A DNA stretch of 61,496 nucleotides from Candidatus Cloacimonadota bacterium (GTDB lineage: Bacteria > Cloacimonadota > Cloacimonadia > Cloacimonadales > WRIO01). Location of the stretch: assembly GCA_009777575.1 (NCBI GenBank), contig WRLO01000010.1, positions 1 through 61,496 of the forward strand. The letters run 5' to 3'. Below the pieces are notes generated by a model. That model was not told the DNA's origin. It saw only the letters and a list, made by a program, of their open reading frames with translations, and did not search any database. Made by a program: the position numbers and the translations under genes. Below are positions 43,135 to 60,078 of this stretch, piece by piece; the stretch's first letter is position 1; each line of letters begins with the position of its first letter.

Positions 43135-43155
43135 TTTACTCCTCCTTATTAGGAT

Positions 43156-45461: not shown

Positions 45462-46643
45462 TTATTTTCCTTTAATAAATTCTAAGTAATTCAATTCAGC
45501 AATTAGTCTATGCCCCTCAACATTTGGATGAACCATATCCAAAGAAATTGAATCTCTGAGAGGATTAAGGTTGAAACTCATCAGATTTAATCGATTTGAC
45601 ATGTGTGCATGAACATCAGTTACTAAAAAACCTTTTTGTTCACTTGCTTCTATAATCATAGAGTTCATAGCTTCGAGATATATACTTGCCCATTCTGACA
45701 ATGGTATAGAAAGCAACAATATTTCCTCAGGAATAGGATTAAAGATTGTGTTAACTATGATAGTCGCATTAGGTGCATTATTTTCAATCCAAATGATGAT
45801 TTCTTGAAATTCTGATGTGAATGTTTGTAGACCTGAATCAAAAGCTACCATCAATTCATCAGAAATATTACCATCAAGGACAGAATACACTGTTGGAGCA
45901 CCCACGATAACATCTTTGGCACCAGTAAATAAGCTACCAAAACCAGAACCGATGCGTTTTATTCCTTCCCATGCTCCTTTTGCATCAAAACTTGATTGAT
46001 CGTTTTCAGAAACAACACTTCGGACACCAGAAGATATTTCGTTGAATAAGTCGAGAGACCCTGCAACTACTTCCTCCCCACCCACTTTTATACTAGATAA
46101 TCCAGCAGCTAATTGAGTATTTGACACATAATCAATAAAGGGTAATAATACATTATTACCACCTATATTCACCGAAACAACTCGTGCTTTTTTAAACTTT
46201 TTTAACTCTTTTTTAGTTTGATTGTTCAACATTTCTAATAAATCAGAAGTTGTAAAACCATTCTGTGCCAAGTTGTAGTGTTCTTTTACATAACCATCGG
46301 TTTGTAACTTATGAAATAGTTGAAATGTATAGTATTGGGATTCTTCATCTATTCCAAAACCTGAAGAAACAGAATCTCCAAGAGCTATGTAAATATATGG
46401 TTTTGAATCTTTTGTAAAATATAAGATTAGAAAACCAATAAGAATAACTACAATTACACAGATAATAATTATTGGATTAAAATTTTTGTTACCAGATTTA
46501 GAGGGAGTCAATTTTCTTGAGGTTCCCTTTCTTGAATCTTCATTATTTTTATATCCTGTGTAACTTTTTGGCTTTGTCCCACCAGACACAGTTGATGCCT
46601 TATAACCAGTGGTTCCCTTGGATGCACCATATTTACTTGTCAT
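45462..46643 (-). CDS. SGNH/GDSL-family hydrolase with an N-terminal Ser/Gly/Thr/Lys-rich segment and a TM anchor.
   Basis: IYIALGDSVSSGFG (GDSxxxG block I). TM helix IIIICVIVVILIGFLILYF. Last gene of the tubulin-like/vWA operon. Confidence 0.65.
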   Translation of the reverse strand: MTSKYGASKGTTGYKASTVSGGTKPKSYTGYKNNEDSRKGTSRKLTPSKSGNKNFNPIIIICVIVVILIGFLILYFTKDSKPYIYIALGDSVSSGFGIDEESQYYTFQLFHKLQTDGYVKEHYNLAQNGFTTSDLLEMLNNQTKKELKKFKKARVVSVNIGGNNVLLPFIDYVSNTQLAAGLSSIKVGGEEVVAGSLDLFNEISSGVRSVVSENDQSSFDAKGAWEGIKRIGSGFGSLFTGAKDVIVGAPTVYSVLDGNISDELMVAFDSGLQTFTSEFQEIIIWIENNAPNATIIVNTIFNPIPEEILLLSIPLSEWASIYLEAMNSMIIEASEQKGFLVTDVHAHMSNRLNLMSFNLNPLRDSISLDMVHPNVEGHRLIAELNYLEFIKGK

Positions 46644-46664
46644 TTTTTACATCCTTTTAAATTT

Positions 46665-49600
46665 TTATTTATCATACTTATTTATTCTTTCATTCCATTT
46701 TTCTTCTGTCCAAAATATTGGAATATCAAGAGGGATATTATTTTTAAAAGGGTTTTTATTTTTATTGAGTGTGGTAAGACCTAAATTTTTGATAAAACCA
46801 TTGATACCAAGATTATATTTATCATCAAGACCATATTGATAGTAGTAATTTGCAAAACCTCTTCCATACTCTGATCTATCAAAACATATCCATGATGTTA
46901 ACGCTCTCTCTATCCTTGATTTAATCATCTCTTTATCCGCCGTAATCGAATGCTTTTTAGTTTTATTAAATTTCTTTAATAACCCTTTAATCTTACTATC
47001 TGTATCTCCAACATAGTATAATAAGTATTGTATTTCAGACCAGCGAGCAAGGCCTTCAAGAACCATACTTCTTTCACTCTCATTTCCATACATAACAATA
47101 AGAGTTTCATAGTTCCAATTTTTGTTTGGATTTGTATACTGCCATATATGAACTAATTCATGAGCGGTTGTTTTTAGCATACTGATCAATGGAGAACCAT
47201 TTTCTATCCATATTTCGCGTATATCCCCATATTGCCTTGCAAAACCCAGAAAACGAGCATCAAAACCTGGTGTTGGTCTAAATTCAGTTCCCCATGCTTT
47301 TGCTATTTCATTTGCATTTTTCACAAAAAGCTCAATCTTAACATCAAAGTTTACACCGAGATGTTTTTTAAGTCTATCTCTTATTTCTTGGTATAAAGTA
47401 ACAAAATCATTTTTTTCTTTTATAACTGATTTAGAGCATTCAGAACATCTATCGCGACCATCTGGTAACTCTTCATATTCTTCCTCAGGGTTTATTATAC
47501 AGCCGTCAAAATCACATATTCTAGTGCCTGTTTTATCGGTTTTTTTCTTGGTTCGTTTTCGCCACTTATCTCTTGTCCAAAAGCGTTTTTTCTTACGATC
47601 ATCATATTGGTCGTCAAAGGGTGTTCCACCGCCTCCTATTACTTCAGTTAATTCGTCATCATCAAACTGATTGAAAAAATCACTTATCCCTACATTGTGG
47701 ACATCTTCAAGTCCATATTGCTTGTAACATTCAGCAAAAGACATTCCTGCTTCTTGGGTGTTGTTTAGTAGGACTAAAATCATTCTCTTTGCATAAGCTA
47801 CTTCATTTAAGTGTAAAAGATACTGGATCTTTGTCCACTCACCCATGTTTATTTCATCATCGTTTTTTTCTTCAGAGTTAGAATTCATCTTTCTTTTTTC
47901 TTTTTGCCAGATATTCGTCAACTCATAAACAATATTTATCAAAGTAGTTAATTTGGGTGCACCATTTTCTACCCAGATACGATATTCCCCTTCTTTGATT
48001 TCTTCAAGATATGTAGTTGGTCTTTCGTCATATTTTTTTGTAGGTTTGAATATCAGATTGTGCATTTTAGCGATTTTCTTTGCATTAGTCATAAAGACAT
48101 CGATTTTTATTCTCTCTGAGTTTTCACTCAATTTATCAAGATTTACATTAAAAAAGAAAATCATATCCCGAAAAGCTTTGAGATATATTCTCTTTAGTTG
48201 CTCAGAATTGGTAACAGCTGAATTGTGGCATATAGTACAACTGATTCTTCCATCATCTAAAACCCTTTTGGCAACTTCAGATAATTTTATCGCACAGAAA
48301 TCACAATACACTGAATCTATATCGTCAAAATAATTAATGTTTATATCTAAAGAAGAGTCTTTTTTCGATTTTCTAGCATTATGTAATGCTGTTTTCAGGT
48401 AATCATTTTTTTTCAAAAAGCCAAGAGTCGATTCTGCATCAAAAACTTTCAATGTTTCATCATCAGAAGCTAATCCAAAATTTAAATAATTTACATATTC
48501 TCTTTTAGAATTTATCTCTTTTTCAGAAATAGATTCTTTGGTTGCATGATCTTCTTCATCAGATTCTCTTATGCGACTAGTCTTTGTAAATTCGTCTTCT
48601 TCATTCTCTTTGCTTAGCATTTCTTCTTCAATATCTACTTCATCATCAGATTCTTCAGATTCAAAATCTATCGTATCTTTATTTTCTGAATTATTCATCA
48701 TGTTTCCTATAGTAATATTGCCGGTCTGTTCAGCAGGTTTTACTTTGTCTTTATCGACAGACATTTCTATATTCCAGGATAGGTAGTCAGCAATTATTTC
48801 AAGGAGTCCTTTTAGATTATTTGAAATAGCATCAAGCAAACCTAAATCAATTTCTGAGTCCTCTATAATATATATAGCATTCTCATCGAAACCATCTAGA
48901 TTCATGGAATGTAAAAGCATAGAAATATTAGTTTCATGTTTATTACTACCAATCATAATTGATATATAGTGGTAATTTTCTGGGAATACAGAAACAATCA
49001 ATTCATTGAGTAATACAGCTAAGGTAAACAATGACCTCGAGTCTTTGTTTTCTTTTAGTTTTAGACACATTACATTCTTTTTCAAATAGGTTCGATATCT
49101 AACATTATCTGGTAATACTGGCATATTAGGAAAAATATCTAAGTTATTCCTCGATTTTTGTTCAAAAAATCCTTTTGTTTCTACTTTCACTTCATCACAG
49201 ACTCCTCTGGTAATATCTATACCTTTGGATCTTGCCATATAAGATTGATCTATTTCAAAATTTGAGAGACAATATTCTCGTATTTGTCGATAATAATAAA
49301 TATCATTACTAAAGCTACTTGTAGCATCTGTAATTATATTTTTCTCTGTTACAGTATGTATTCTGTAATACTGTCCATCGTAAGAGAAATACTGCTTAGG
49401 TAAATATTTTTGAGAAACTTGATTTCTTAGCAAAGTTATTGGATGTTCTTTTTTATTCGGTAGAATAATCTCCGTGAAAAGGAATTTGTTAGCATATTTC
49501 CCGAGTTCAGTATCACCGTTTAGTTTTATGTATGTAGTATTTACAACTTTTGTTTCAGCATCTGGAAGATCAATGACATCGTATTTAGACTCAATCGCAA

Positions 49601-52010
49601 ATTCTATATCTTCATTTAATAGGAAATATTTTTTAATCAAAGAAACAAGTTTTAGATAAACATCTTTATTAGAGATACACGCAGGTACAATCTGTCTCTC
49701 TTCTTCTGAGAACCCTGTAATCTCAATGCTTTCTTCGGTAAATTTTTCTTGTAAATCACACTCTTTTATTCCTTCATCAAGCATCCTTAATAATAATTCA
49801 ACTATGATGTTTCTTTCTGTTCTACGATAATTTGAAGTTATAAAAGGAATTGTATCAGGAAGTTTGGCAAAAATATGAGGATTATCCGCAATATAATCTC
49901 TTAAGAGATAGTTATCACTAACAGTATTAATAAAGCAAATGTTTTGAGCTCTAGTACCGAACAACCTTGATGTTTCAAAGATATTATTTATTTCATCTTC
50001 AACTGTGATAAAGGCAGCATCTGAGATACCTAAATCCCAGAGATTCTTTTTGACATCTATTTTTTTATCGAGTTCTGTATCATTTACTCCAAGATAACCA
50101 CTAAGTATTTTCTTATTCTTATTCTTTATGTCAATAGCAGGGAAATTTGTGCTACTTAACCAAATAGAAATAGGAACATCATTTTTTAAAGCTATTAGCG
50201 ACAATAAAACATCCATACTTAATTCCTTGGGGACATGCTTTAGATCATCAATTGAATGTTGAATTGGTTTATCTCTAGCCGCATCCCAGTTCATGATATA
50301 GCATATTGCTTGGGAGGAGGTATCATAGTTAACTTCATTTATATAGTCTTTTTTTTCTTTCAATATCATTCTCAAAACATCATTGAGATCCTTACTTTCT
50401 CTATCACAAGCACAATATATCACATTTTCTCTATCTAAATGATCAACGATAATGGTAAGACCTATTTGTCCTGTTGATATCATATGCGAAGGCTCGATAA
50501 GCAAAACAATACTGACTTGTTTAAGAAATTCTTTTTTATTAGCTAGTATTTGTCTGTTGTATATATCAGTAAAGCTAAGAATACCAATGTCATACTCAGG
50601 ATCTCTTTTGGTAATTTTACTACTTTTCCAAAGAGTTTTTGTGCCAGAAAATTTTTCAATTGCATTATCTATCCATACTTTCACATCGTCGGCTGTATTG
50701 TCACGTCCAGCTATTATTAAAACCTTATTATATGCCATTAATTCAAGCATAATAGGTATGACTATATAGTTATCTAGATCTTTGTAAAAAGGAGAATTTA
50801 TAAGAACTGATTCTCTTTTCTTAATCATATCAATTGTTATTTGAACAAGCTCAGTATTTATTTGTTCACCTTTTTCTTTAAGTTTGGTAAAAAATTTGCC
50901 TATAGCTTGTTCTGTTTTACACTCACTATTTTCGAGTTTTTCTAAATGCTCAAAAATAGAGGTGCTAAAAGAGCTTGATATAACTGTCTCCGCAAGAACT
51001 CGATTGGGGTCGTTAATCCCTTTTTTCAATATAGGATAAATTTTCCGAAAATTATAGATAATCTGAGATTTAGAATCTTCACTTAAATCTATATAAGTAT
51101 CTTCTTCTTCAACTCCTATGGGATCATGGTGAGGTTCTCCTTTATTTCCTGATAGAAAATTCAACAACTCTCCTATAATCAGTAAACCAAACACAGGGAA
51201 TATGCTTACATTGAGTATATAAGACAATGGTCGTATCTTAGTATAAACCATAATAGCAATAGATATACCGATAGCCCACCAAAAGACTTTTTTTAGCAAA
51301 TCACTCGCATGCTCATATTTTTTTGCTAATACAAATGAATCTTCTGTTCCGTCATATTCATAGAAACCGAAAAGGTTTATAGGATGGTAAGCACTATTAA
51401 TCCACATAGAATCAAGCTTTGGTAAATTTTTCATGAAAATCCGCTTGAACCCTATAAAGAAAAGTATGATAAAAATATTAATAGTATAATATCCCCACTT
51501 CTCTAAATCCATTACCTGTAAAAATTTCAAGTGACCAAGTAACCATGTATAAAAAGTAGATATTGTCTCTTGAGTCATCATTGGTATGTATTCTGAATAA
51601 AGTCTTGAAATCAAACTATACCACCCTGATAGCTTTATAATCAACCAATTGTATAATTTAATGTATGCAAAGACTATTAACAAAAAGTAAAGTAATGCTG
51701 TAAATGGCATTATCGATTGTTGATACCGTTGAGACTTTGAAAGATTGAGTTTTTCACTCGTTATATCTAACAAACACCATAGAAAAATTCCACAGGCAAC
51801 AAGGTTCATTGCATATTGAGGAATATATCGATTTATGATATAAAAACCTATTAAAATCAAAATAAAATATAAAAATTTTATTTTTCTCAAAATGTATGCA
51901 AAGAGCTTAATAATCTTAACTATGAGCCATAAAAAAACTAATGATATGGCTAAAAATAAGAGATTGTTTGCAGTTACAAACTGTAATATATCATTCATTA
52001 TTACCCCCAA
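46665..52010 (-). CDS. Giant (1781 aa) multi-domain protein: ~9-TM N-terminus, ~800-aa cytoplasmic region, acidic linker, then two tandem Zn-ribbon + zincin-like modules (the second with an intact HELVHIWQY).
   Basis: Hydrophobic helices in aa 1-300. DE-rich stretch (ESEESDDEVDIEEEML...). Duplicated CDFC...CTIC / CDFDGC...CSEC ribbons each followed by a W(V/I)ENG(A/S)P module and YELTNIWQ (degenerate) / AHELVHIWQY (HExxH). Confidence 0.6.
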   Translation of the reverse strand: MGVIMNDILQFVTANNLLFLAISLVFLWLIVKIIKLFAYILRKIKFLYFILILIGFYIINRYIPQYAMNLVACGIFLWCLLDITSEKLNLSKSQRYQQSIMPFTALLYFLLIVFAYIKLYNWLIIKLSGWYSLISRLYSEYIPMMTQETISTFYTWLLGHLKFLQVMDLEKWGYYTINIFIILFFIGFKRIFMKNLPKLDSMWINSAYHPINLFGFYEYDGTEDSFVLAKKYEHASDLLKKVFWWAIGISIAIMVYTKIRPLSYILNVSIFPVFGLLIIGELLNFLSGNKGEPHHDPIGVEEEDTYIDLSEDSKSQIIYNFRKIYPILKKGINDPNRVLAETVISSSFSTSIFEHLEKLENSECKTEQAIGKFFTKLKEKGEQINTELVQITIDMIKKRESVLINSPFYKDLDNYIVIPIMLELMAYNKVLIIAGRDNTADDVKVWIDNAIEKFSGTKTLWKSSKITKRDPEYDIGILSFTDIYNRQILANKKEFLKQVSIVLLIEPSHMISTGQIGLTIIVDHLDRENVIYCACDRESKDLNDVLRMILKEKKDYINEVNYDTSSQAICYIMNWDAARDKPIQHSIDDLKHVPKELSMDVLLSLIALKNDVPISIWLSSTNFPAIDIKNKNKKILSGYLGVNDTELDKKIDVKKNLWDLGISDAAFITVEDEINNIFETSRLFGTRAQNICFINTVSDNYLLRDYIADNPHIFAKLPDTIPFITSNYRRTERNIIVELLLRMLDEGIKECDLQEKFTEESIEITGFSEEERQIVPACISNKDVYLKLVSLIKKYFLLNEDIEFAIESKYDVIDLPDAETKVVNTTYIKLNGDTELGKYANKFLFTEIILPNKKEHPITLLRNQVSQKYLPKQYFSYDGQYYRIHTVTEKNIITDATSSFSNDIYYYRQIREYCLSNFEIDQSYMARSKGIDITRGVCDEVKVETKGFFEQKSRNNLDIFPNMPVLPDNVRYRTYLKKNVMCLKLKENKDSRSLFTLAVLLNELIVSVFPENYHYISIMIGSNKHETNISMLLHSMNLDGFDENAIYIIEDSEIDLGLLDAISNNLKGLLEIIADYLSWNIEMSVDKDKVKPAEQTGNITIGNMMNNSENKDTIDFESEESDDEVDIEEEMLSKENEEDEFTKTSRIRESDEEDHATKESISEKEINSKREYVNYLNFGLASDDETLKVFDAESTLGFLKKNDYLKTALHNARKSKKDSSLDININYFDDIDSVYCDFCAIKLSEVAKRVLDDGRISCTICHNSAVTNSEQLKRIYLKAFRDMIFFFNVNLDKLSENSERIKIDVFMTNAKKIAKMHNLIFKPTKKYDERPTTYLEEIKEGEYRIWVENGAPKLTTLINIVYELTNIWQKEKRKMNSNSEEKNDDEINMGEWTKIQYLLHLNEVAYAKRMILVLLNNTQEAGMSFAECYKQYGLEDVHNVGISDFFNQFDDDELTEVIGGGGTPFDDQYDDRKKKRFWTRDKWRKRTKKKTDKTGTRICDFDGCIINPEEEYEELPDGRDRCSECSKSVIKEKNDFVTLYQEIRDRLKKHLGVNFDVKIELFVKNANEIAKAWGTEFRPTPGFDARFLGFARQYGDIREIWIENGSPLISMLKTTAHELVHIWQYTNPNKNWNYETLIVMYGNESERSMVLEGLARWSEIQYLLYYVGDTDSKIKGLLKKFNKTKKHSITADKEMIKSRIERALTSWICFDRSEYGRGFANYYYQYGLDDKYNLGINGFIKNLGLTTLNKNKNPFKNNIPLDIPIFWTEEKWNERINKYDK

Positions 52011-52012
52011 AT

Positions 52013-53668
52013 TTAATACTTTAGATGAATGCTTTCTATAAAACTATAAGGTGCGTTACACTCTTGACCCGTTTGATCAAGAGGAATTTTTTCACCAATA
52101 TCATCTTTTGAAAATGTATAAAAATCATCTTTTAATGATTTTTTAATAAAATCATCTATTTTCTCGAGATTATCAAGTGGATTAATTTCTTCTCTGAGTC
52201 TTATATTTAAAGCCGCATGAAGTTTTCTTGTTCTATCAATCTCTTCTTTAAGAAAATGTTGATTTATTATAAAGGATTTTTTTTTGTCTCTATTTTTTTC
52301 ATGTCTTTGTTCAAGATTCTTTATAATAGCCTTATGATACATATAATTTCTTACTTTAGAAAAATATTTGTTAAAAGAAAGTGTCCCTTCCTCATACTTT
52401 ACTCGTTTAGGTTTTTTAAAAACTATTGTTTTTATCGATGATTCCAATGAGTTTAAAATATTTTTCTTATGAAAATTACTTATATATATCAAGAATCCAA
52501 CTGAAAAAACTCCTATACTAGTAGCGAAAATAAGCTGAAAAAGGCTGCCACGCATGAATAAAAAAGTAAAAAGATAGGTAAAAAAACAAAGACTAAAAGC
52601 AATTGTAGATCCTTTGATCAATAAACCTAAACTATAATCAACTTCATTACGATCATATTCACTCTCTTTACCCTCTAATACAATCTCTTGCTCTGCTTCA
52701 AGCAATGTCTGATCTGCTTCTAAACCTATTCGAGAATAGATAAGTTCATTAGCCAATGTCTGGATTGTTTCATTTACCTTTTTGGTTTGAGTTGTTGACC
52801 ATTCAGAATGCTCATGCTCATTTAAAAAAGTGTTTGTTTCATCTCTAGTTAGCTTGGCTGTTTTTTCTATTTTTTCTTCTAAATCCATATCCAACTCTTC
52901 TGTCATTTCAGAATATTCTATCAAATTTCTCTCTTTTCCTTTTTGAGTTTGCTGGCTTTCTTCATTTGCTAAAAATATTTTTATTTGATTATCAATAGTG
53001 ATTAACTTACTTATATACTTCTGATAAACACTTTGTAGTTTTTCTTTATTCCTATTTGTTGTTATATAAGCATCGTATACTCTAGTACGATGTAAATTGG
53101 CTGGTTGTATATCGCTTAAGGCAATTGTAAGTGTTGACAAAAAATACAACCATATATCAGCTTTCTCCAAATAGGTGTCTGCGCTAAATGATTTATAAGA
53201 ATCTGAGTTTAGAGTATAGTATAAAAATTTGCATCCATATGAATATAAATTTCCTACTGGATCTTGAACTTTAGCTTTTTTATCGGACTTATTTATCATT
53301 AAATATAGTAATACTTCTGAAGCGTGGTGAGTTTCATAAAGCTTCTCTGACAAATACATTAATGATGTTTTTTTTTCAGTATCTTGGCTTTCACTAAAAC
53401 GAAACGGGTTATTAGGAAATGCGGTGTTTTTTTCATTGCAAAGAATTATTGCTCGCCATTCTTCATGACCCCTTATTTCCTCATATAAACCTGGCACAGA
53501 ATTTTCAATGCCATCTCCTGTCTCATCCCAGTTGAAAATTGAGATAGCATTTTTATTTTTATAAAATGAAAATAGATGAATATAATCATCTATTAATATA
53601 GACATTTTTTTGTCTGTTATAATTATAGTATGCATTATATCTCCCTTTATTTCCCAAAACGCTGACAT
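52013..53668 (-). CDS. Hypothetical protein with two central TM helices (551 aa).
   Basis: TM segments TIAFSLCFFTYLFTFLFM and LIFATSIGVFSVGFLIYI. 3-bp gap to the downstream giant gene. Confidence 0.5.
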   Translation of the reverse strand: MSAFWEIKGDIMHTIIITDKKMSILIDDYIHLFSFYKNKNAISIFNWDETGDGIENSVPGLYEEIRGHEEWRAIILCNEKNTAFPNNPFRFSESQDTEKKTSLMYLSEKLYETHHASEVLLYLMINKSDKKAKVQDPVGNLYSYGCKFLYYTLNSDSYKSFSADTYLEKADIWLYFLSTLTIALSDIQPANLHRTRVYDAYITTNRNKEKLQSVYQKYISKLITIDNQIKIFLANEESQQTQKGKERNLIEYSEMTEELDMDLEEKIEKTAKLTRDETNTFLNEHEHSEWSTTQTKKVNETIQTLANELIYSRIGLEADQTLLEAEQEIVLEGKESEYDRNEVDYSLGLLIKGSTIAFSLCFFTYLFTFLFMRGSLFQLIFATSIGVFSVGFLIYISNFHKKNILNSLESSIKTIVFKKPKRVKYEEGTLSFNKYFSKVRNYMYHKAIIKNLEQRHEKNRDKKKSFIINQHFLKEEIDRTRKLHAALNIRLREEINPLDNLEKIDDFIKKSLKDDFYTFSKDDIGEKIPLDQTGQECNAPYSFIESIHLKY

Positions 53669-53720
53669 ACACTACTATATATGCCAACGCTTTGGGTTCA
53701 TTAAGCCACTAGGGCATATT

Positions 53721-56700
53721 TCATTCTTCATCCTCGGTCATCACTGTCGCTTCTGTTCTTTTATTTCTTTGCCTTATTTTCTCTTCTATTTCAGATGCTA
53801 TTTCCCATGTGGTTTTATCTCTCATGTATTCTATCACTTTGTCACAGATGTTAGACACATATTCACTCATCTTAAACTCTCTTTCCTTATCTCTTGAGTA
53901 TTGTCCAGCTCCAGTAAATAAAGTATCAAGTTGTTCATTAACTATTTCTTTGAGTTTTGAAAAACGTTTTATCTCTTCCATGTAGTAAGAACCAAGACCT
54001 GAGTTGATAATATCAAGTATATGTTCTATCAAAGATGGAATAGTATCTCTATCAAATTTAGCTTCAGGAGTACTAAATCGGTAAAGAGTAGCTATTTCGA
54101 AAATACTCGTTTTACGTTTTGGAAAAACCTCAAGTAACTTAAAGTTTTCTAAACCTAACGAAAGTTTTCCCTTGCTGTATACTATGCCTTCTTCAAAATC
54201 TTTTTCTAAACTATTCTTAGTTTGAGAGATTAATCTGTCAAGTAGCTGTTGGTTAGTGTTTAAAGTCTCAATGACTTCATACAATTTTTTGCCTGATCTT
54301 TCAGGTTGTAATTTTTCTATATAGATTTCATAACAGTTTAAATCCTTATTAAAACGGATATGGTTAAATATCAAACCTTTAATAAGTGCTTCATAAGCCT
54401 GAATTGGTCCTCCACCTGTTCCAGCAAGATCAGTCATTACAGAGATACTATGCCAATTGCTTCTCATATGAGGTGTTACAAATAATTTGTCATTTGATGT
54501 CTGGATATAATCTTGATAAAGATTATAGTATAGACCTGAATTTATATCTGCCTTACCACCAGAAGGAGCTGCAAACTTGACCAATTTTGAAGGAGATAAA
54601 TTGTAAATATATCTAAAGAAAAGGATTTTTTCTTTTCCTGTCAAAGAATCTGCTGTAGCATTTTTATCATAATTCTCAAGATGCTCATCAATAAATGCTT
54701 GCTTCCACCCAGTGTATAGTGTGGGATCGAAAGAACAGGTATATTCTAATCTACCCCTAGCTGATGCTTCACGAGTAGATATATAAGGACTAGCTAGGCT
54801 TTTTGCTTTATTTACTAGCTCCATCATATATACATTATCATCTGTGATCCCTTTTAATTCTGCTTCTTTTTTCATTGCTTCAAAAACATCCATATCAAGT
54901 GTATTTGAGTGTTTCCTAACAATATTTACAAAGAAGCCAACAATATCATTTTCAAGGACACTATCAAAAAATTCTCTTGCATTTATCCTGTCTTCATCAG
55001 GCACATGACTACCAGATTTACCTGAAAAAAGTTTAACTTGATTGTATATTTTTTTAAACAAAGCACTCGTTTCCTCATCAATGGTAGCTGGTATAGGTGT
55101 CTTTTTTGCTAATTCTTGCAGACACTGTTTTGAGGCACAAATATTAAGAACAGCTACTCCTGTCTCATCTGTGTATTTTTTCTCTAACGCCACTATATTG
55201 CTTTCTATATTGGCTACTTGAGTTTTAAATGTAAGATAGAAAGTCTCGTAAGATTTACTTAATTCATTGAGACGGTTTAAACCTCTTTCTAGTACTTCAA
55301 CAGTCACAGCGTTTATTAGATATTCATCTATTTCTTCCTTTGCTTTTTGCATTTCATCTACAAATCCTGGCATATAGAGTTTACCAAGAGGACGTCCTAA
55401 AATATATTTCACTTTTGAATCATGTTCTGCCACATGTATAGCATTTTCTATATCATCTGTTGCTTTTCCTAGAAAGTCGTCCATCATATGATCAACCATC
55501 TTGAAGAGATGTTCTGGTATTTCTTTTATCCTGTTTTCAAATCTGATTTTTTCTGATTTGAAAACTTCCAATGCATGATATAAAAAATATCTCTTTGAAT
55601 TTGGATGCATTATGATCCCTTCATTGTCTTTTAAGAAGTTTTCCAACATGATGCTATCAAACCAAAGGTCATCATCCATATCTTCTACATCTGGGAAAAG
55701 TTCATTTGCTAACTTAATTCCCGTCTTCTCTATATTTTTAATCACAAAGTTTTTGTATGAAATGAGTGCCTTGTGAGTATCGACAAACAAATTTGGGTCA
55801 AGTTTTAGTGTTACGCTATCTCTTTGTTCTATAAGGGTAGGTAAATTGTTTTCTACGACATTTTTATCTTCAGTTTTTTCAAAACTACCAGCATTAGTAG
55901 CTATATAGTTTTTTACACTTTCAAAATATTTTTCATATCTTGAACCAGGTAGTAAAGTTCCTTCAGAATCGTATAATTGAGATGCTCTTTGGATTTCTTC
56001 AGCGAAAGTATTTCTTTTTACTATTTCATCTACACTCTCAATATATAGTTCACCTTGGTCTGGTGGTGTTTTCTTTTTATCTTTTGATTTTGCAAGCTCA
56101 TCTACTGCTTGATAATACTTTTTATCAAACATAGTCCATTCATTTTCTAAGATTTCTTGTGCCCATTTTAAAGAGACATATCTATACACATCATTCTTAG
56201 GATAATTTATTTCAGATGAGCCGAGCCCAACATAACAATTTACTCCTTGATTGTTACTCGCGTGAGCTGTTGCACTGTTGTCGGCTCCAGATGCCGCTTT
56301 TCGCCCCATAGGCGATAGAATCTTGTTATAAAGACATGTAGCTATGTGATTCTTGTATTGTTCTGCATTGCTTAAAAAAGTGCCATCAATATTTTCTTTG
56401 TCAAACAGATAACACCATTTAAACGGGGTATACTTCATCTCTTTTAACACCCCTTTATCATCTGGTAAGTATAATTGTAACCTATCGCTTTGTTGCTGTG
56501 ATAAATGTCCTTTGCCTTTCAAAGTAAAAGCATTAATTTCTCTAAGTGTAGCGTAAGCATTAATTTTTGTTCTGTCCTTATCTTCTTTTTTCTTTAAGAG
56601 ACCTTCTATTATCTCAGGTAAAACAAAAACACCATAAATGTTACTACTTTTTGCACTAAGACCCATGTTCAACCTAAAATAATCCTGTAGATACATTGCT

Positions 56701-57200
56701 AGTGGCAAAACTAATCCAGCACCAGTTCCACCAGCTATAGAACATATCAAATAAACTTCTACTGTTTGGGTTGTAGTATCAGCATCTTTTTTAAGCAAAT
56801 CATCGATTGCCTTATGTATAAGTCCAAGCTCTGTACTATTTACCAATGTATCTAAGAAAGCTAAGTATGATATAGCACGAACTTGTCCCGCTCCTTCAAG
56901 TATAAGTTTTTCATATAAATGTTTAACATTGGGAAATAAAATTTTTTCATCTTCATTTTTTTCCAACAAACCGTCTAAACATTCAGCAACAGTTTTTCCT
57001 GATGCCATCAAAATTGAACCTATGCTCTGACCTTTTCCAGTTTTTGAGTTAATACTCAAAATTTGATGCAACAATTTATCTGTATCAAAAGCAATAAACC
57101 TCGTAGTTTTTTTATACGAGTCGTCTGTAGCCATTTGAGCAAGTTTTATAAGGATTTCTGATCCTATCCCGCCCAATCCTATTATCAATGTACGAGTCAT
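53721..57200 (-). CDS. Tubulin/FtsZ-superfamily GTPase domain (N-terminal ~330 aa) with an ~800-aa helical C-terminal extension. FtsZ-like-1 (FtsZl1)-type protein.
   Basis: T1 loop IIGLGGIGSEIL, T3 LEGAGQVRAIS, T4/tubulin signature SIAGGTGAGL. No FtsZ C-terminal domain. Confidence 0.6.
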   Translation of the reverse strand: MTRTLIIGLGGIGSEILIKLAQMATDDSYKKTTRFIAFDTDKLLHQILSINSKTGKGQSIGSILMASGKTVAECLDGLLEKNEDEKILFPNVKHLYEKLILEGAGQVRAISYLAFLDTLVNSTELGLIHKAIDDLLKKDADTTTQTVEVYLICSIAGGTGAGLVLPLAMYLQDYFRLNMGLSAKSSNIYGVFVLPEIIEGLLKKKEDKDRTKINAYATLREINAFTLKGKGHLSQQQSDRLQLYLPDDKGVLKEMKYTPFKWCYLFDKENIDGTFLSNAEQYKNHIATCLYNKILSPMGRKAASGADNSATAHASNNQGVNCYVGLGSSEINYPKNDVYRYVSLKWAQEILENEWTMFDKKYYQAVDELAKSKDKKKTPPDQGELYIESVDEIVKRNTFAEEIQRASQLYDSEGTLLPGSRYEKYFESVKNYIATNAGSFEKTEDKNVVENNLPTLIEQRDSVTLKLDPNLFVDTHKALISYKNFVIKNIEKTGIKLANELFPDVEDMDDDLWFDSIMLENFLKDNEGIIMHPNSKRYFLYHALEVFKSEKIRFENRIKEIPEHLFKMVDHMMDDFLGKATDDIENAIHVAEHDSKVKYILGRPLGKLYMPGFVDEMQKAKEEIDEYLINAVTVEVLERGLNRLNELSKSYETFYLTFKTQVANIESNIVALEKKYTDETGVAVLNICASKQCLQELAKKTPIPATIDEETSALFKKIYNQVKLFSGKSGSHVPDEDRINAREFFDSVLENDIVGFFVNIVRKHSNTLDMDVFEAMKKEAELKGITDDNVYMMELVNKAKSLASPYISTREASARGRLEYTCSFDPTLYTGWKQAFIDEHLENYDKNATADSLTGKEKILFFRYIYNLSPSKLVKFAAPSGGKADINSGLYYNLYQDYIQTSNDKLFVTPHMRSNWHSISVMTDLAGTGGGPIQAYEALIKGLIFNHIRFNKDLNCYEIYIEKLQPERSGKKLYEVIETLNTNQQLLDRLISQTKNSLEKDFEEGIVYSKGKLSLGLENFKLLEVFPKRKTSIFEIATLYRFSTPEAKFDRDTIPSLIEHILDIINSGLGSYYMEEIKRFSKLKEIVNEQLDTLFTGAGQYSRDKEREFKMSEYVSNICDKVIEYMRDKTTWEIASEIEEKIRQRNKRTEATVMTEDEE

Positions 57201-57213
57201 GATAAACCCTCCT

Positions 57214-59157
57214 TTATCTTATTTGTAAAGTATTTGTAGTGACTTTATCATCATTGTTTTTAAATACTGTTGTGAAAACAACACTACAGTTTATTTCATA
57301 ATTTGTTCTTTCCAAGTTTTCTATTGTTGATGCTCCAAATTTAATGCTCTCTATACCATATTCCCTCAGTCTAGCATTAGTAAATCTGTCAGGGTTTAAT
57401 ATTCGCATCCTACCTCCACCTAAAGCTTCTAATTCCACTCGTGGTAACCTGGCATTGGTACTGATTTTGAGAGTTCCTTTTTCACAAGCTCCTTTTCTGT
57501 CTGTAAACCTGAATTCAAATGGTCTTTTAGATGGTTTTTCTTTTGAGCCATCAATTTTTTCTATAATGTAGTTATTACCACTATATTTACTTGGAAATTT
57601 TTTTCGACTGACATTTCGTATTTTATTGATAAAAATAATCAGAATTACCAATAAAACGATAAACACTATTCCCCAGTTTTTTGCATAATCTCCTATACCC
57701 CATTCCCTTGAGACCCCAGTAATTCTTTTTTCGACATGATTTATCCCGAGAAATGATGCTGTAACTCTGATATCAAAGTCACCTGCCATAATATCAATAG
57801 AATCTCCTGAACGATGATTTGAAAAATCACCTTCTGGGTTTTTATAAGTTATAATGATATCAGCATCGCCTATCAGTGCGTATAAAGCATTTTCGGATAT
57901 TTCTATTTCAGTGTCTATTGGCACAAGTTTGACATCAAAGGAATATGTTCCATGAGGAAAATCATTTACTAAATCATCAAAATTTATTTCCCTATTGAAG
58001 AAAAGGTTATGATCTTGAGAAACCTTAATATCAAGCATTAATGCAGGTCTATAAAATATTTCAACATTTTCTGGTGAGCCCTCAATGTTTATCGTATATT
58101 CGCCAGCAGGTATATTTCGATAAGTAAGTAAAGAACCCAAAAGTGTTGGTCTTATGACATTGGTGGGACGTTCTAACCTTGGGGGACGTTGTCTATTTGC
58201 AGGGAAAAATTCTGGATTGTATCTCACCGTCACTGGAGCATCTATCCAATTTATTGTTTCTGAACCTCTAATCATGCTCTGTATTACAACATTTCTACCT
58301 TGGGCAAATACAACAAGTTCCTGCATTGGTATTTCTATGTCAAATTTGTATTGATTACCTTCCCTTGCAAAGCTAAGTGCATTTCTATTGAAAACCCTTT
58401 TGCCAAATTCGTTTACCTCACGCAATATTTCATCATCATTTTCTGCTTTATGAAAATATCTGTTCATGGCTTCACGAACTTCGGCAGCATAAGTTCCCAT
58501 AGCAAAATGTATTATTTTAATATCGGGATTATCGCTGACAAATCTTCTATATATTCTCTCGACATCAACTCTCCTATGTTCTTCTGTTTCATTAAAATTT
58601 AAACCAGCTATTTGGTTGAAATGTCCATCAGTAAAAACAATCAACCATCTTTGATCCGCTGATTGATTCAAAAGATCAGCATAAGCCATCAATACAGGAT
58701 CAAATGGAGTGCCTGCTGAATATGTAACTCTATTCCTAAATTGACCTATGCGAACAGCTGAATCTTCAGACCCTTGTATGAGCATGGGATCGCGACCTCT
58801 TCTATTTCCAGCTAACATGGATTCCAAAGTTGCTGAAACAGTTTCATTTATTTGGTCTTCTCGTATCAATCCATCGCGTGGTTGACCTGATACAAAAAAA
58901 TCTTCCATAAAATATATACGCAACAAGTCATCTTTTTCCATTTTAGAAATAAACACTTCCATTGCATATCTCGCATGTGCCCATCGTCCGTAATAACGAC
59001 CCGGTATTCTATCATTGAATATCATGCTCCCAGAGTCATCATATACAAGATGAATAACTCTACTCGGTTGGTTTGATACTTGTGTCTGTGCATTCAAACA
59101 CAAAGAAAATATGTTAAATACTAAAAACAAAAATAAAAATGAGACATTCTTTTTCAT
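57214..59157 (-). CDS. Secreted von Willebrand factor A (vWA) domain protein with a C-terminal TM anchor and a ~130-aa cytoplasmic tail.
   Basis: Signal peptide MKKNVSFLFLFLVFNIFSLCLNA. MIDAS VIHLVYDDSGSM. TM GIVFIVLLVILIIFI near the C-terminus. Confidence 0.75.
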   Translation of the reverse strand: MKKNVSFLFLFLVFNIFSLCLNAQTQVSNQPSRVIHLVYDDSGSMIFNDRIPGRYYGRWAHARYAMEVFISKMEKDDLLRIYFMEDFFVSGQPRDGLIREDQINETVSATLESMLAGNRRGRDPMLIQGSEDSAVRIGQFRNRVTYSAGTPFDPVLMAYADLLNQSADQRWLIVFTDGHFNQIAGLNFNETEEHRRVDVERIYRRFVSDNPDIKIIHFAMGTYAAEVREAMNRYFHKAENDDEILREVNEFGKRVFNRNALSFAREGNQYKFDIEIPMQELVVFAQGRNVVIQSMIRGSETINWIDAPVTVRYNPEFFPANRQRPPRLERPTNVIRPTLLGSLLTYRNIPAGEYTINIEGSPENVEIFYRPALMLDIKVSQDHNLFFNREINFDDLVNDFPHGTYSFDVKLVPIDTEIEISENALYALIGDADIIITYKNPEGDFSNHRSGDSIDIMAGDFDIRVTASFLGINHVEKRITGVSREWGIGDYAKNWGIVFIVLLVILIIFINKIRNVSRKKFPSKYSGNNYIIEKIDGSKEKPSKRPFEFRFTDRKGACEKGTLKISTNARLPRVELEALGGGRMRILNPDRFTNARLREYGIESIKFGASTIENLERTNYEINCSVVFTTVFKNNDDKVTTNTLQIR

Positions 59158-59197: not shown

Positions 59198-59596
59198 TCA
59201 ACAGATATCACTCCCAATGAATTGTTTTTCAAGGTCATCAGCAAAAGAAATTATTGTTAATATCAAACCCATCACTCTTTCAATTGAAATTTCTGATATG
59301 TTTAAGGTTTGCCTGAGATAGTGGTATTCATGAATTTTACTTTTAACCAAACCACCACAAACTACAGTACTGTTAATTTTTGCAAGCACTTGATTTATTT
59401 TGTTTTCTGGTAACATTCCTATATATGAATAGAATTGCACCCAGTGATTTCCGAAAGCATCTTGTACATTTTCAATGATAATTTGTTGTTTTCTATCTCC
59501 TGACGTGTTAAAACTTATTCTCACAATGTTTTCAGCAGGTTCAATAATATTCCATTGCTGTGATAATCTTTCTTTGACTTGAAGCCATGTTGCCAT
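59198..59596 (-). CDS. Small cytoplasmic protein, paralogue of the next gene (possible YbjN/T3SS-chaperone-like fold, low confidence).
   Basis: 132 aa beginning MATW..VKE.L.Q. Shares W(V/I)QFYS.IG..PE... and ADD/ADNxEK(E/Q)F motifs with the adjacent 150-aa ORF. Confidence 0.4.
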   Translation of the reverse strand: MATWLQVKERLSQQWNIIEPAENIVRISFNTSGDRKQQIIIENVQDAFGNHWVQFYSYIGMLPENKINQVLAKINSTVVCGGLVKSKIHEYHYLRQTLNISEISIERVMGLILTIISFADDLEKQFIGSDIC

Positions 59597-59625
59597 AATT
59601 CTCTCCTTTTTGTTTTATTATTATA

Positions 59626-60078
59626 TTATCTCTTATCTACACCAAGAAATTCTTTTTCAATATTATCTGCTAACATTCCAATTAATTGCATTTCAAATAA
59701 ATAATGTTCTGTTGAAATATCAGCAAGTGATACACTGTGTCTGATACAGTGTATTCCATTATCTAAAACTAATTCGCCAAAAATATTCTTCTCAGAAAGC
59801 AATTCAAGAACAGGATTAAGTAATTTTTCTGGAATCACTCCTATTGGCGAATAGAATTGTATCCAATTGTCATCATATTTCGTAGTAGAAAGGGTTTTCT
59901 GAAGATGAATAAAAACATCTTGTAATCTATTATTTGGTAATAGCAATCTGATTTGTAAAAGACTATCATTTTTAGCTACTGCGTTAAATTTTTGATGTAA
60001 AACATTTTTTACTTCATTCCATGTTGCCATGTTTTTTCCTCCGTATATTTTCTCATTCATCCCTAAAGAAATTACCAT
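59626..60078 (-). CDS. Small cytoplasmic protein, paralogue of the previous gene.
   Basis: 150 aa, MATWNEVKNVLHQKF.... 26-bp overlap with the upstream M48-like gene. Confidence 0.4.
   Translation of the reverse strand: MVISLGMNEKIYGGKNMATWNEVKNVLHQKFNAVAKNDSLLQIRLLLPNNRLQDVFIHLQKTLSTTKYDDNWIQFYSPIGVIPEKLLNPVLELLSEKNIFGELVLDNGIHCIRHSVSLADISTEHYLFEMQLIGMLADNIEKEFLGVDKR

What the first reader, a model, noticed from the sequence alone, without database searches (positions are those of the whole stretch)
45462..59157. Five-gene operon built around a 1159-aa tubulin/FtsZ-like GTPase and a secreted vWA protein, with a 1781-aa multi-TM protein carrying duplicated Zn-ribbon/HExxH modules
The minus-strand genes are vWA (57214..59157), a tubulin/FtsZ-like GTPase with T1 GGIGSEI, T3 GAG and T4 GGTGAG loops (53721..57200), a two-TM protein, a 1781-aa giant membrane protein, and an SGNH hydrolase. 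Gaps between them are 14, 53, 3 and 22 bp.

The GTPase lacks the FtsZ C-terminal domain. It has an ~800-aa helical extension instead. My recollection of Makarova and Koonin's computational description of FtsZ-like families is that FtsZl1 genes sit in operons with TM proteins and a vWA protein and were proposed to remodel membranes. This cluster fits that pattern. It adds an extraordinary 1781-aa protein with two tandem CxxC...CxxC zinc-ribbon plus zincin-like modules (only the second retains HExxH) and an SGNH esterase. None of this has been characterised experimentally, to my knowledge.
Basis: partly seen in the sequence, partly recalled or inferred. Interest (0 to 1): 0.82.

Follow-up and report, generated by a model that had tools for sequence, protein, structure and literature searches.

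The report
Tubulin-like GTPase, vWA receptor, pseudo-helicase cassette
The genes are real and form a widespread but never-tested four-gene membrane module built around a tubulin-like GTPase; the gene order was already tabulated in 2010, but its giant protein turns out to be a membrane-anchored, apparently ATPase-dead DNA-repair-type helicase fused to a zinc protease, which points to surveillance or defence rather than plain membrane remodelling.

Summary
All five ORFs exist as described, apart from small corrections. B is a Pfam Tubulin_2 (FtsZl1) protein (E 1e-49). A is a membrane-anchored protein, not a secreted one, with a vWA domain outside the cell; this is confirmed by an AlphaFold model and Foldseek. 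E is an SGNH hydrolase.

Only four genes form the conserved unit. The order A(vWA)-B(tubulin-like)-C(two-TM)-D(giant) recurs in every one of about 80 loci where the contig allows it, with one exception. These loci span Clostridia, Actinobacteria, Myxococcota, Treponema and Cloacimonetes. The SGNH gene is not conserved. Its slot holds fast-changing accessory genes: FtsK-like ATPase, channel-like proteins, transglutaminase, GmrSD-type nuclease, TIR-LRR and hydrolases.

New here: D's 750-residue core folds like the whole MrfA/YprA SF2 helicase (Foldseek E 2.7e-22). However, Walker A and B are replaced by invariant NPFYxDL and EPS. The core is followed by a Zn-ribbon/HExxH peptidase, conserved in 63 of 66 modules.

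Makarova and Koonin's 2010 supplement already lists this exact four-gene arrangement, so the locus is a divergent member of a known, uncharacterised kind.

The best reading, held with moderate confidence, is a membrane-associated conflict or surveillance system. Membrane remodelling remains a live rival.

The parts
57214..59157 (-). Gene A: type I membrane protein with signal peptide, extracellular vWA and Ig-like domains, one TM helix and a cytoplasmic beta domain
   Evidence: ORF. AlphaFold model with pLDDT 86.4. Foldseek PDB hits are vWA proteins: SpaC pilus adhesin 1e-10, Sec23/24, Ku80 vWA, PilB pilin, TFIIH p44. 87 homologues found.
58378..59061 (-). vWA domain of A (aa 33-260) with MIDAS motif D40-x-S42-x-S44 ... 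T150 ... D177
   Evidence: T150 and D177 are invariant; D40, S42 and S44 are conserved in at least 90% of the 87 homologues. Fold match. Pfam VWA_2 gives only weak hits, in 3 of 7 members.
57706..58368 (-). Beta-sandwich (Ig-like) stalk domains of A (aa 264-484)
   Evidence: All-beta secondary structure in the model. Best whole-chain matches are vWA plus Ig-like pilus adhesins: SpaC and Mfa5. Length varies among homologues.
57604..57696 (-). TM helix of A (aa 488-518)
   Evidence: Hydropathy scan; helix 495-516 in the model.
57223..57519 (-). Cytoplasmic beta-rich domain of A (aa 547-645)
   Evidence: Confident model segment, pLDDT about 85-93. Conserved among homologues. Fold not identified.
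53721..57200 (-). Gene B: cytoplasmic FtsZl1/Tubulin_2 GTPase with a long C-terminal extension
   Evidence: Pfam Tubulin_2 E 1e-49, 170 bits against a cut-off of 27. PF00091 Tubulin scores 20.4 bits, below its cut-off of 33. 401 full-length homologues. NCBI names it 'tubulin-like domain-containing protein'.
56148..57188 (-). Tubulin-like nucleotide-binding domain of B (aa 5-351): T1 GLGGxGS, EGAGQVR, T4 AGGTGAG
   Evidence: Extent of the Pfam match. Invariant G8 L9 G10 G11 G13, E102 G103 A104 Q106 V107 R108 and G157 G158 T159 G160 G162 in 44 homologues. Signature match.
53724..56147 (-). C-terminal extension of B (aa 352-1159), conserved along its full length in the family
   Evidence: Homologues align over 90-99% of the query. 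Many conserved positions, e.g. P910 H911 W916 H917. No Pfam or PDB match. Helical or coiled-coil character is taken from PMC2875224, not tested here.
52013..53668 (-). Gene C: uncharacterised protein with a cytoplasmic N-terminal region, a TM hairpin (aa 354-397; nt 52478-52609) and a C-terminal region
   Evidence: ORF. TM scan. Homologous to the gene after B in every locus. No Pfam family in 70 members. No PDB relative. Labelled 'B5' in PMC2875224 Additional file 5.
46665..52010 (-). Gene D: giant membrane protein made of a TM anchor, an MrfA/YprA-like pseudo-helicase, an acidic linker and Zn-ribbon/zincin modules
   Evidence: ORF. Homologous to the fourth gene of every locus. Family of 877 50%-identity clusters at E<=1e-3. 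Labelled 'B12' in PMC2875224.
51141..52010 (-). TM region of D (aa 1-290). The first two helices (aa 8-64) are specific to this window; four are shared with relatives.
   Evidence: Hydropathy scan. The alignment shows that relatives start near residue 59.
48741..51053 (-). SF2 helicase-like core of D (aa 320-1090): RecA1, RecA2, winged helix, OB, connector and C-terminal domain, in the order seen in MrfA
48501..48728 (-). Acidic low-complexity linker of D (aa ~1095-1170; 33% Asp+Glu)
   Evidence: Composition. Variable in length and unalignable among homologues. Absent where the module is a separate gene.
47676..48488 (-). Zn-ribbon/zincin-like module, copy 1 (aa 1175-1445): CxxC...CxxC retained, HExxH degenerated to YELTN
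   Evidence: Found only in this window.
46728..47534 (-). Zn-ribbon/zincin-like module, copy 2 (aa 1493-1761): Cx4C...CxxC, HELVH, downstream EGLARW
   Evidence: HE[LMV]TH[IV]WQ is conserved in 63 of 66 modules. Weak Pfam matches to metallopeptidase families: DUF6055 4e-6, DUF6782 2e-4, BSP, M61, DA1-like.
45462..46643 (-). Gene E: membrane-anchored SGNH/GDSL hydrolase (TM helix aa 51-81, catalytic domain predicted outside the cell). It occupies the variable accessory slot and is not part of the conserved core.
   Evidence: Pfam Lipase_GDSL_2 5.9e-15. TM scan. No homologue next to any other cassette.

Best explanation
What it is (shown): a divergent Cloacimonetes copy of a conserved four-gene membrane module.
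- A is a surface receptor-like protein. Its MIDAS-bearing vWA domain sits outside the cell on an Ig-like stalk. One TM helix links it to a small cytoplasmic beta domain.
- B is a cytoplasmic tubulin/FtsZ-superfamily GTPase of the FtsZl1 (Tubulin_2) family with an ~800-aa extension.
- C is a TM-hairpin protein of unknown fold.
- D is anchored by four to six TM helices. It carries a complete MrfA/YprA-type SF2 helicase architecture whose ATP-binding motifs are gone. A flexible acidic tether follows, then a Zn-ribbon plus HExxH metallopeptidase.
- A fifth, rapidly exchanged gene follows D. Here it is an ecto-SGNH hydrolase.

How it most likely works (inferred):
1. The module is a membrane-based conflict or surveillance system, not a housekeeping cytoskeleton.
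2. The vWA ectodomain, the helicase-like module of D, or both, detect an invader. Candidate signals are a ligand at the surface, or nucleic acid appearing at the inner face of the membrane.
3. This nucleates GTP-dependent assembly of B on the A/C/D membrane platform, which acts as a threshold switch.
4. Assembly positions or activates D's tethered zincin.
5. The zincin processes a target or unleashes the variable accessory protein: lipase/esterase, channel-like protein, nuclease, TIR, transglutaminase-like peptidase or FtsK-like ATPase.
For: Components:
- Pfam Tubulin_2 E 1e-49.
- vWA fold with a conserved MIDAS motif.
- Helicase fold of D with MrfA as the best whole-architecture match.
- Loss of Walker A in 125 of 129 D homologues, with invariant replacement motifs.
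- HExxH conserved in 63 of 66 modules.

The four genes behave as a unit:
- A-B-C-D order holds in all 88 loci, limited only by contig ends, with one A-B-only exception.
- Pairwise identities of the four proteins correlate at r 0.72-0.94.
- In Actinobacteria the zincin module is a separate overlapping ORF, which shows it is an autonomous part.

Conflict-system signature:
- The slot after D holds at least seven unrelated families typical of effectors: FtsK-like in 18 loci, two channel-like families in 11 and 7, transglutaminase in 9, GmrSD_C nuclease in 7, TIR-LRR in 4 and abhydrolase in 3.
- These differ between cassettes whose B proteins are about 90% identical, and even between contigs with an identical B.
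- Distribution is patchy across five phyla, in at least 368 of 185,579 species genomes.
- Flanking genes differ in every locus.
- In this window the cassette sits in a 40-kb run of TIR, TIR-LRR, DUF4062, KGGVGR ATPase, HerA, Schlafen/AlbA_2 and SPFH genes.

Precedents:
- Kaur et al. 2020 (PMC7159879) interpret related tubulin plus extracellular-vWA operons as NTP-thresholded conflict systems that often use inactive NTPase domains.
- YprA/MrfA-family helicases are the core of DISARM, Dpd, Druantia and ARMADA (10.1101/2025.09.15.676423).
Against: - No experiment exists for any member.
- None of the five proteins matches a PADLOC model.
- Flanking genes across 148 neighbours are mostly housekeeping. 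Only about 10 hit defence models at E<=1e-10, so a general defence-island association is weak.
- The cassette is almost absent from plasmids and phages: 2 distant hits and 1 hit.
- The accessory genes could be mere neighbours in a variable region.
- Channel-like and FtsK-like partners also fit transport or remodelling roles.
- The helicase-like module may be a dead scaffold that binds no nucleic acid.
- GTP binding and polymerisation of FtsZl1 proteins are unproven. The 2010 authors could not align T6-H7, the elements needed for FtsZ-type filaments.
Confidence: 0.42

Rival explanations
1. Membrane-remodelling or vesicle-forming machine, the original Makarova-Koonin proposal. B polymerises on the inner face of the membrane, anchored by A, C and D, and deforms or organises it as a constitutive or stress-induced cell-biological function. 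D's protease and the accessory genes are regulators or cargo.
For: - Three of the four core proteins are membrane proteins and B belongs to a cytomotive superfamily.
- The 2010 analysis reached this view from the same kind of context.
- Channel-like, SGNH and transglutaminase partners act on or at the envelope.
- The cassette is chromosomal and flanked mostly by housekeeping genes.
- Dynamin-like remodelling and defence are not mutually exclusive.
Against: - This view gives no role to a complete but ATPase-dead MrfA-type helicase architecture, nor to nuclease, TIR and FtsK-like partners.
- A patchy presence of roughly 0.2% of species and accessory turnover at about 90% core identity are unusual for a basic cell-biology module.
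- The 2010 authors could not align the T6-H7 filament-forming elements of FtsZ in this family.
Confidence: 0.25
2. Surface adhesion, or DNA/protein translocation apparatus. The vWA/Ig-like ectodomain of A is an adhesin, like pilus-tip vWA adhesins. The cytoplasmic parts (helicase-like D, with an FtsK-like ATPase in some loci) handle DNA or substrates passing the membrane, as in uptake, transfer or secretion, with B as organiser.
For: - The best structural matches of A are pilus adhesins SpaC, PilB and Mfa5.
- FtsK/SpoIIIE-family ATPases are the commonest accessory gene, in 18 loci.
- D has a DNA-helicase architecture at the membrane.
Against: - No pilin, sortase, secretin, relaxase, WXG or other transport hallmark was seen in or beside the cassette.
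- The FtsK-like protein has no TM segment and is present in only about a quarter of loci.
- D lacks the motifs needed to power translocation.
- The cassette is rare on plasmids.
Confidence: 0.13
3. The cassette is a remote, GTPase-less derivative of the DO-GTPase/GAP1-N2 conflict systems of Kaur et al. 2020. C would be a diverged GAP1-like adaptor, and the system would work in the same way, but with D replacing the GTPase pair as the regulated switch.
For: - About half of GAP1-N2 systems contain tubulin-domain proteins plus membrane-bound extracellular vWA proteins, in Firmicutes and Actinobacteria.
- Makarova and Koonin gave C the same family label ('B5') as a component of the GTPase-type operons.
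- GAP1 is often fused to C-terminal TM segments.
Against: - No P-loop motif is present in any of the five proteins.
- There are no Pfam hits of any kind in 70 C proteins or in D.
- None of the 88 loci has a small GTPase gene between A and D.
Confidence: 0.15

Closest known systems
FtsZl1 (Pfam Tubulin_2)/vWA operons of Makarova and Koonin 2010 (PMC2875224), specifically the vWA-FtsZl1-B5-B12 arrangement in their Additional file 5 (Ruminococcus lactaris RUMLAC_01529..01526; Bacteroides capillosus BACCAP_04124..04121)
   Same: - Same four genes in the same order, with similar sizes (732/1136/678/1418 aa there; 647/1159/551/1781 aa here).
- B12 was already annotated as a membrane-associated zincin protease fused to a Zn finger.
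- B matches Tubulin_2.
   Different: - The window's copy is only 25-30% identical to any relative and comes from a different phylum.
- D has a duplicated, half-degenerate zincin module and two extra TM helices.
- An SGNH gene follows D.
- The 2010 work did not recognise the helicase-like core, the generality of the four-gene unit or the variable fifth gene. It proposed membrane remodelling.
DO-GTPase/GAP1-N2 conflict systems with tubulin and vWA components (Kaur, Burroughs, Iyer, Aravind 2020, PMC7159879)
   Same: - Tubulin-domain protein with a helical C-terminal extension.
- Membrane-bound protein with an extracellular vWA domain plus a beta-rich domain.
- Found in Firmicutes and Actinobacteria.
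- Inactive NTPase domains and variable effectors.
- Proposed NTP-dependent assembly used as a threshold.
   Different: - No DO-GTPase and no recognisable GAP1.
- No separate FNIII-repeat protein.
- Instead there is a C/D pair, with D a pseudo-helicase-zincin fusion.
MrfA/YprA (DUF1998) SF2 helicases: B. subtilis MrfA (PDB 6ZNP, PMC7797055) and the helicases of DISARM, Dpd, Druantia and ARMADA (10.1101/2025.09.15.676423)
   Different: - No sequence-level match to any helicase Pfam family.
- Walker A and B are replaced.
- There is no four-Cys DUF1998 site in the corresponding region.
- D is membrane-anchored and fused to a zincin, not a nuclease.
- The YprA survey mentions no tubulin, vWA or transmembrane context.
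Integrin-type and pilus-tip vWA adhesins (SpaC, PilB, Mfa5)
   Same: MIDAS-bearing vWA domain displayed on Ig-like domains outside the cell. As in integrins, a single TM helix links it to a cytoplasmic tail beside a cytoskeletal-type protein. This last point is an analogy only.
   Different: No sortase or pilin signals. The cytoplasmic partner is a tubulin homologue. No evidence of adhesion.
Zorya-type membrane-triggered defence (comparison from general knowledge, not tested)
   Same: The concept of an envelope-embedded sensor that recruits or activates cytoplasmic nucleic-acid-directed components near the entry site.
   Different: No homology to ZorA-D was detected (PADLOC). The comparison is purely a mechanistic analogy.

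Membership tests
FtsZl1 / Pfam Tubulin_2 (PF13809) | Match to the family HMM above the curated cut-off, over the N-terminal nucleotide-binding domain | tested here: met
   170.1 bits against a cut-off of 27, E 1e-49, residues 5-351 on profile positions 1-355 of 356.
FtsZl1 / Pfam Tubulin_2 (PF13809) | No FtsZ_C or Tubulin_C domain; a long C-terminal extension instead | tested here: met
   No Pfam hit beyond residue 351 except noise. The extension is conserved in 401 homologues. Its helical or coiled-coil nature was not tested.
FtsZl1 / Pfam Tubulin_2 (PF13809) | Adjacent vWA-domain gene | tested here: met
   A lies directly upstream (13-bp gap) and is a vWA protein. This holds wherever the contig reaches upstream of B.
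Tubulin/FtsZ superfamily | Glycine-rich T1 loop and T4 signature GGGTG[ST]G / [SAG]GGTG[SA]G | tested here: met
   GLGGIGS at 8-14 and AGGTGAG at 156-162. Both are invariant in 44 homologues.
Tubulin/FtsZ superfamily | Match to PF00091, or to solved FtsZ/tubulin structures | tested here: inconclusive
   PF00091 scores 20.4 bits, below its cut-off of 33. A family profile finds no FtsZ/tubulin chain in the PDB at E<=1. hhalign against E. coli FtsZ aligns only S1-S3, with probability 12%.
Tubulin/FtsZ superfamily | T7 catalytic loop and GTP-dependent polymerisation | not testable with these tools
   T6-H7 could not be aligned by the 2010 authors. Needs biochemistry or a structure.
von Willebrand factor A domain | vWA (Rossmann-like alpha/beta) fold | tested here: met
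   Model pLDDT 86.4. 78 PDB matches at E<=1e-3, led by vWA-containing proteins. Sequence HMMs alone are weak: VWA_2 best E 0.062.
von Willebrand factor A domain | MIDAS motif DxSxS...T...D | tested here: met
   D40, S42 and S44 are conserved in at least 90% of 87 homologues; T150 and D177 are invariant.
MrfA/YprA (DUF1998) SF2 helicases | Seven-domain architecture with a dual RecA core | tested here: met
MrfA/YprA (DUF1998) SF2 helicases | ATPase motifs I (GxGKT) and II (DExH) | tested here: not met
   GxxxxGK[ST] occurs in 4 of 129 homologues and not in the window. The motif I position is NPFYxDL and the motif II position is hhhhEPS.
MrfA/YprA (DUF1998) SF2 helicases | Four-cysteine Zn site of DUF1998 in the C-terminal domain, and a match to helicase or DUF1998 HMMs | tested here: not met
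   There is no Cys cluster between residues 983 and 1235 of D. No DEAD, Helicase_C or DUF1998 Pfam hit.
Zincin (HExxH) metallopeptidases | HExxH plus a downstream third ligand | tested here: met
   HELVH at 1617 with EGLARW about 30 residues downstream. HE[LMV]TH[IV]WQ is present in 63 of 66 modules. Copy 1 (YELTN) does not meet this feature.
Zincin (HExxH) metallopeptidases | Match to a curated peptidase family | tested here: inconclusive
   Only weak hits in some members: DUF6055 4e-6, DUF6782 2e-4, BSP 0.011, M61, DA1-like. No PDB sequence match. No structure model was made.
DO-GTPase/GAP1-N2 systems (Kaur et al. 2020) | One or two DO-GTPase genes | tested here: not met
   No Walker A motif in A-E. 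No GTPase Pfam hit. No extra gene lies between A and D in 88 loci.
DO-GTPase/GAP1-N2 systems (Kaur et al. 2020) | GAP1 protein (GAP1-N2/M/C domains) | tested here: inconclusive
   No Pfam hit in 70 C proteins. However, I could not confirm that GAP1 models are in the library, and the 2010 paper labels C 'B5' like a component of GTPase-type operons.
SGNH/GDSL hydrolases | Match to the family HMM above cut-off, and a GDS block | tested here: met
   Lipase_GDSL_2 56.7 bits against a cut-off of 32.9; Lipase_GDSL 41 against 23.6. The sequence contains ALGDSVSSG.
Known anti-phage defence systems (PADLOC 2.0) | Match of any component to a catalogued defence protein model | tested here: not met
   No hits for A-E at E<=0.01.

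The most novel reading that the evidence does not exclude
The ABCD cassette is a previously unrecognised class of immune system. In it, a tubulin-superfamily GTPase polymerises at the membrane in response to an integrin-like extracellular vWA receptor, to a membrane-tethered catalytically dead YprA-type helicase that captures incoming foreign DNA, or to both. The polymer then licenses a tethered zincin to fire exchangeable effectors. This would be the first defined cellular function for the FtsZl1 branch of the tubulin superfamily. It would also be a new link between the helicase core of DISARM/Druantia-type defence and a cytoskeletal switch.
Probability: 0.2. Interest if true: 0.85.

Novelty: new member of a known kind. 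Interest (0 to 1): 0.55.

Why it matters
FtsZl1 is the most diverged branch of the tubulin/FtsZ superfamily and has had no assigned function since 2010.

This analysis shows that one of its operon types is a tight four-gene unit. It is present in hundreds of species, including cultured gut and soil bacteria, so it can be tested directly.

The giant partner protein is a membrane-anchored helicase look-alike from the family that drives DISARM, Druantia and related defences. That gives concrete assays: nucleic-acid binding by D, phage challenge, and HExxH and GTPase point mutants.

If the defence reading holds, it would add a tubulin-type polymer to the list of cytoskeletal proteins used in prokaryotic immunity. 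If it fails, the same experiments test the older membrane-remodelling idea.

Tried and rejected
- Sequence-only detection of vWA in A failed: no Pfam hit for the window protein, no PDB hit with family profiles (the 'Pizza' hits are repeat artefacts), and hhalign to the integrin alpha-M I domain aligned only the MIDAS loop. The question was settled by structure prediction instead.
- A family profile of B found no solved FtsZ/tubulin chain.
- The homologue search with full-length D returned only 7 proteins, probably because low-complexity words dominated. A chimeric A+D profile retrieved mostly A homologues. D homologues were finally obtained from the exhaustive representative search.
- Profile searches of the zincin module and of C against the PDB gave nothing.
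- The promoter/terminator scan was no better than shuffles in this AT-rich DNA, so operon boundaries rest on spacing and synteny only.
- I tested whether the cassette is generally embedded in defence islands. Neighbours are heterogeneous and only about 6% hit PADLOC models, so I do not claim enrichment.
- I considered plasmid or phage carriage and rejected it.
- I considered that the SGNH gene, the TIR gene or the three upstream genes belong to the system. None recurs beside other cassettes.
- One literature search ('Tubulin_2') was uninformative.

Full report
**Observation.**
- The gaps are 13, 52, 2 and 21 bp.
- Gene D starts at a TTG in the mechanical ORF list. NCBI and the metagenome gene caller use the ATG four codons later.
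- The window is a contig of a Candidatus Cloacimonetes MAG. NCBI already calls B a 'tubulin-like domain-containing protein'.
- The motifs quoted for B are present, including AGGTGAG, an exact tubulin signature.
- Both Zn-ribbon/zincin modules of D are present. The first has YELTN in place of HExxH and the second has HELVH.

**The four conserved proteins.**

*B* matches Pfam Tubulin_2, the family built on Makarova and Koonin's FtsZl1, at E 1e-49 over residues 5-351.
- PF00091 is hit only below its cut-off.
- A family profile finds no solved relative, so the fold assignment rests on the Pfam family and on invariant T1/T4 motifs.
- I did not model B.

*A* has no Pfam hit of its own. An AlphaFold model built on 87 homologues (pLDDT 86) gives these parts:
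- a signal peptide;
- a vWA domain whose best PDB matches are all vWA proteins (SpaC pilus adhesin, Sec23/24, Ku80, PilB, TFIIH p44);
- beta-sandwich stalk domains;
- one TM helix;
- a confident ~100-residue cytoplasmic beta domain.

The MIDAS residues are conserved: T150 and D177 are invariant, and D40, S42 and S44 are kept in at least 90% of homologues. A is therefore a receptor-like type I membrane protein, not a freely secreted one.

*C* has a TM hairpin. It has no detectable family in Pfam across 70 members, and no relative in the PDB.

*D* begins with TM helices. Its conserved 750-residue core had no Pfam match.
- A model built on 60 homologues is confident (pLDDT 88, pTM 0.90).
- The best Foldseek match, by fourteen orders of magnitude over Hel308, Brr2 and Mtr4, is B. 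subtilis MrfA/YprA, the DUF1998 helicase (6ZNP; E 2.7e-22, TM about 0.5 over the whole chain).
- The order of secondary-structure blocks follows MrfA's RecA1-RecA2-WH-OB-connector-C-terminal layout.
- The ATPase is gone. Among 129 family members, only 4 have any GxxxxGK[ST].
- The P-loop position is an almost invariant N-P-F-Y-x-D-L, and the Walker B position is h-h-h-h-E-P-S.
- The DUF1998 four-Cys site is also absent.
- Other invariant acidic clusters (EDE..N; ED.xxD.G) are unexplained.
- After an acidic, unalignable linker comes the Zn-ribbon/HExxH module. It weakly resembles several metallopeptidase families. HE[LMV]TH[IV]WQ is kept in 63 of 66 modules.

**Conservation of the unit.** Contexts of five distant B homologues all showed the same four genes.
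- A scan of one genome per species found 368 loci with a B relative.
- In the best 80, plus the earlier loci, local HMMs found A-B-C-D in that order wherever the contig reaches. The counts were 58 ABCD and 13 ABCD with the zincin module as a separate overlapping ORF (mainly Actinobacteria). The rest were truncated by contig ends.
- One locus keeps only A-B.
- Carriers include Clostridia, Erysipelotrichales, Treponema, Myxococcota, Proteobacteria MAGs and Microbacteriaceae, among them several cultured strains.
- The D family has 877 clusters at 50% identity.
- Pairwise identities of the four proteins correlate (r 0.72-0.94, highest for C-D).
- The window's duplicated module and its two extra TM helices are unique to it.

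**The fifth gene.** The SGNH hydrolase (Pfam-supported, with a TM anchor and a predicted outside-facing domain) has no counterpart beside other cassettes. The position after D, on the same strand, is instead filled by unrelated families:
- an FtsK/SpoIIIE-type ATPase (18 loci);
- a 4-TM protein with a Rossmann motif and a C-terminal region I read, by eye, as RyR-like (11 loci);
- a transglutaminase-like protein (9 loci);
- a 2-TM protein with weak, sub-threshold similarity to the CASTOR/POLLUX channel mid-domain (7 loci);
- a GmrSD_C nuclease (7 loci, Actinobacteria);
- TIR-LRR (4 loci) and an alpha/beta hydrolase (3 loci).

These differ between cassettes whose B proteins are about 90% identical. 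In one case they differ between two contigs with the very same B protein.

**Context.**
- In the window the cassette lies in a long same-strand run of conflict-type genes.
- Across other loci the neighbours are heterogeneous and only mildly defence-flavoured.
- The cassette is almost absent from plasmid and phage collections.

**Literature.**
- Makarova and Koonin 2010 defined FtsZl1, noted the vWA partner and proposed membrane remodelling.
- Their Additional file 5 lists precisely this arrangement in Ruminococcus lactaris and Bacteroides capillosus. [quoted passage not shown]
- Kaur et al. 2020 reinterpreted the GTPase-containing tubulin/vWA operons as NTP-thresholded conflict systems. The present cassette lacks their defining DO-GTPase.
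- The 2025 YprA-family survey does not mention tubulin, vWA or transmembrane contexts.
- I found no experimental work on any member.

**Interpretation.**
- Shown: the identity and architecture of A, B, D and E, the four-gene unit, and the variable fifth slot.
- Inferred: that this is a conflict or surveillance module. In that model, surface and/or nucleic-acid sensing triggers B assembly, which controls D's tethered protease and the accessory protein.
- I put this at about 0.4. Membrane remodelling is at about 0.25, and the other readings are below that.

**Novelty and score.** The locus is a divergent new member of a computationally known, experimentally untouched kind. The new element is the recognition of D's pseudo-helicase core and of the core-plus-variable-slot organisation. 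Interest is moderate (0.55): the pattern itself is not new, but it now offers specific experiments on a fifteen-year-old open question.

Noticed in passing
window 33795-45280 (- strand): Directly downstream of the cassette lies a same-strand run of genes. In order: TIR protein (44153-45280), Porphyromonas-type arginine/agmatine deiminase (43156-44163), 693-aa unknown, KGGVGR-motif ParA-like ATPase (40163-41056), 256-aa unknown, AdoMet-decarboxylase-like (38577-39374), DUF4062 (37837-38403), 820-aa TPR protein and TIR-LRR_5 (33795-35387). It looks like a second conflict system that includes polyamine-type enzymes.
   Followed up: partly
window 20180-28259 (- strand): More conflict-type genes: SPFH/Band 7 with SHOCT (20180-21328), SprT-like/DUF6782 metallopeptidase (21881-22648), HerA/DUF87 ATPase (22859-25534) and a Schlafen AlbA_2 + HATPase_c_4 + HTH protein (26559-28259).
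   Followed up: no
window 59198-61306 (- strand): Two small paralogous proteins (132 and 150 aa; 31% identity, E 2e-21) and an M48 peptidase-TerB fusion sit immediately upstream of gene A on the same strand (gaps of 40 and 29 bp, then a 26-bp overlap). They may be co-transcribed but do not recur beside other cassettes.
   Followed up: partly
L003 vs L004, 19895-23426: Two assemblies carry an identical B protein and the same cassette. One has an extra 251-aa TIR gene inserted after D. Both have a tyrosine recombinase and a transglutaminase-like gene just upstream of A.
   Followed up: no
L056, L057, L062, L068, L071-L073, L080, L081, L085 (Actinobacteria) and L017, L022, L027, L059, L078: The Zn-ribbon/HExxH module is encoded as a separate ORF of about 275-575 aa. 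It typically overlaps the stop codon of the helicase-like D gene instead of being tethered by an acidic linker.
   Followed up: partly
L067 7830-18144: A Peptococcaceae locus keeps A and B, followed by HEAT-repeat, FeoB and GlgB genes instead of C and D. It may be a decayed or rearranged copy.
   Followed up: partly
L005 18849-19676; L047; L018, L025, L045: A few cassettes have lost the zincin histidines (CELTK in L005, FELTH in L047). The three Myxococcota copies lack the module altogether.
   Followed up: no
GenBank MT836542.1 (hit H3), 6994-9774: A 9.8-kb unannotated 'Bacteriophage sp.' record from human faeces encodes a B homologue (29% identity over 82% of the query). It is either a mis-binned bacterial fragment or a rare phage-borne copy.
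   Followed up: no
L072 (Naasia aerilata NBRC 108725 chromosome) 7701-19602: In this complete genome A, C and D are each split into two or three ORFs. This suggests a pseudogenised cassette or sequencing errors.
   Followed up: no
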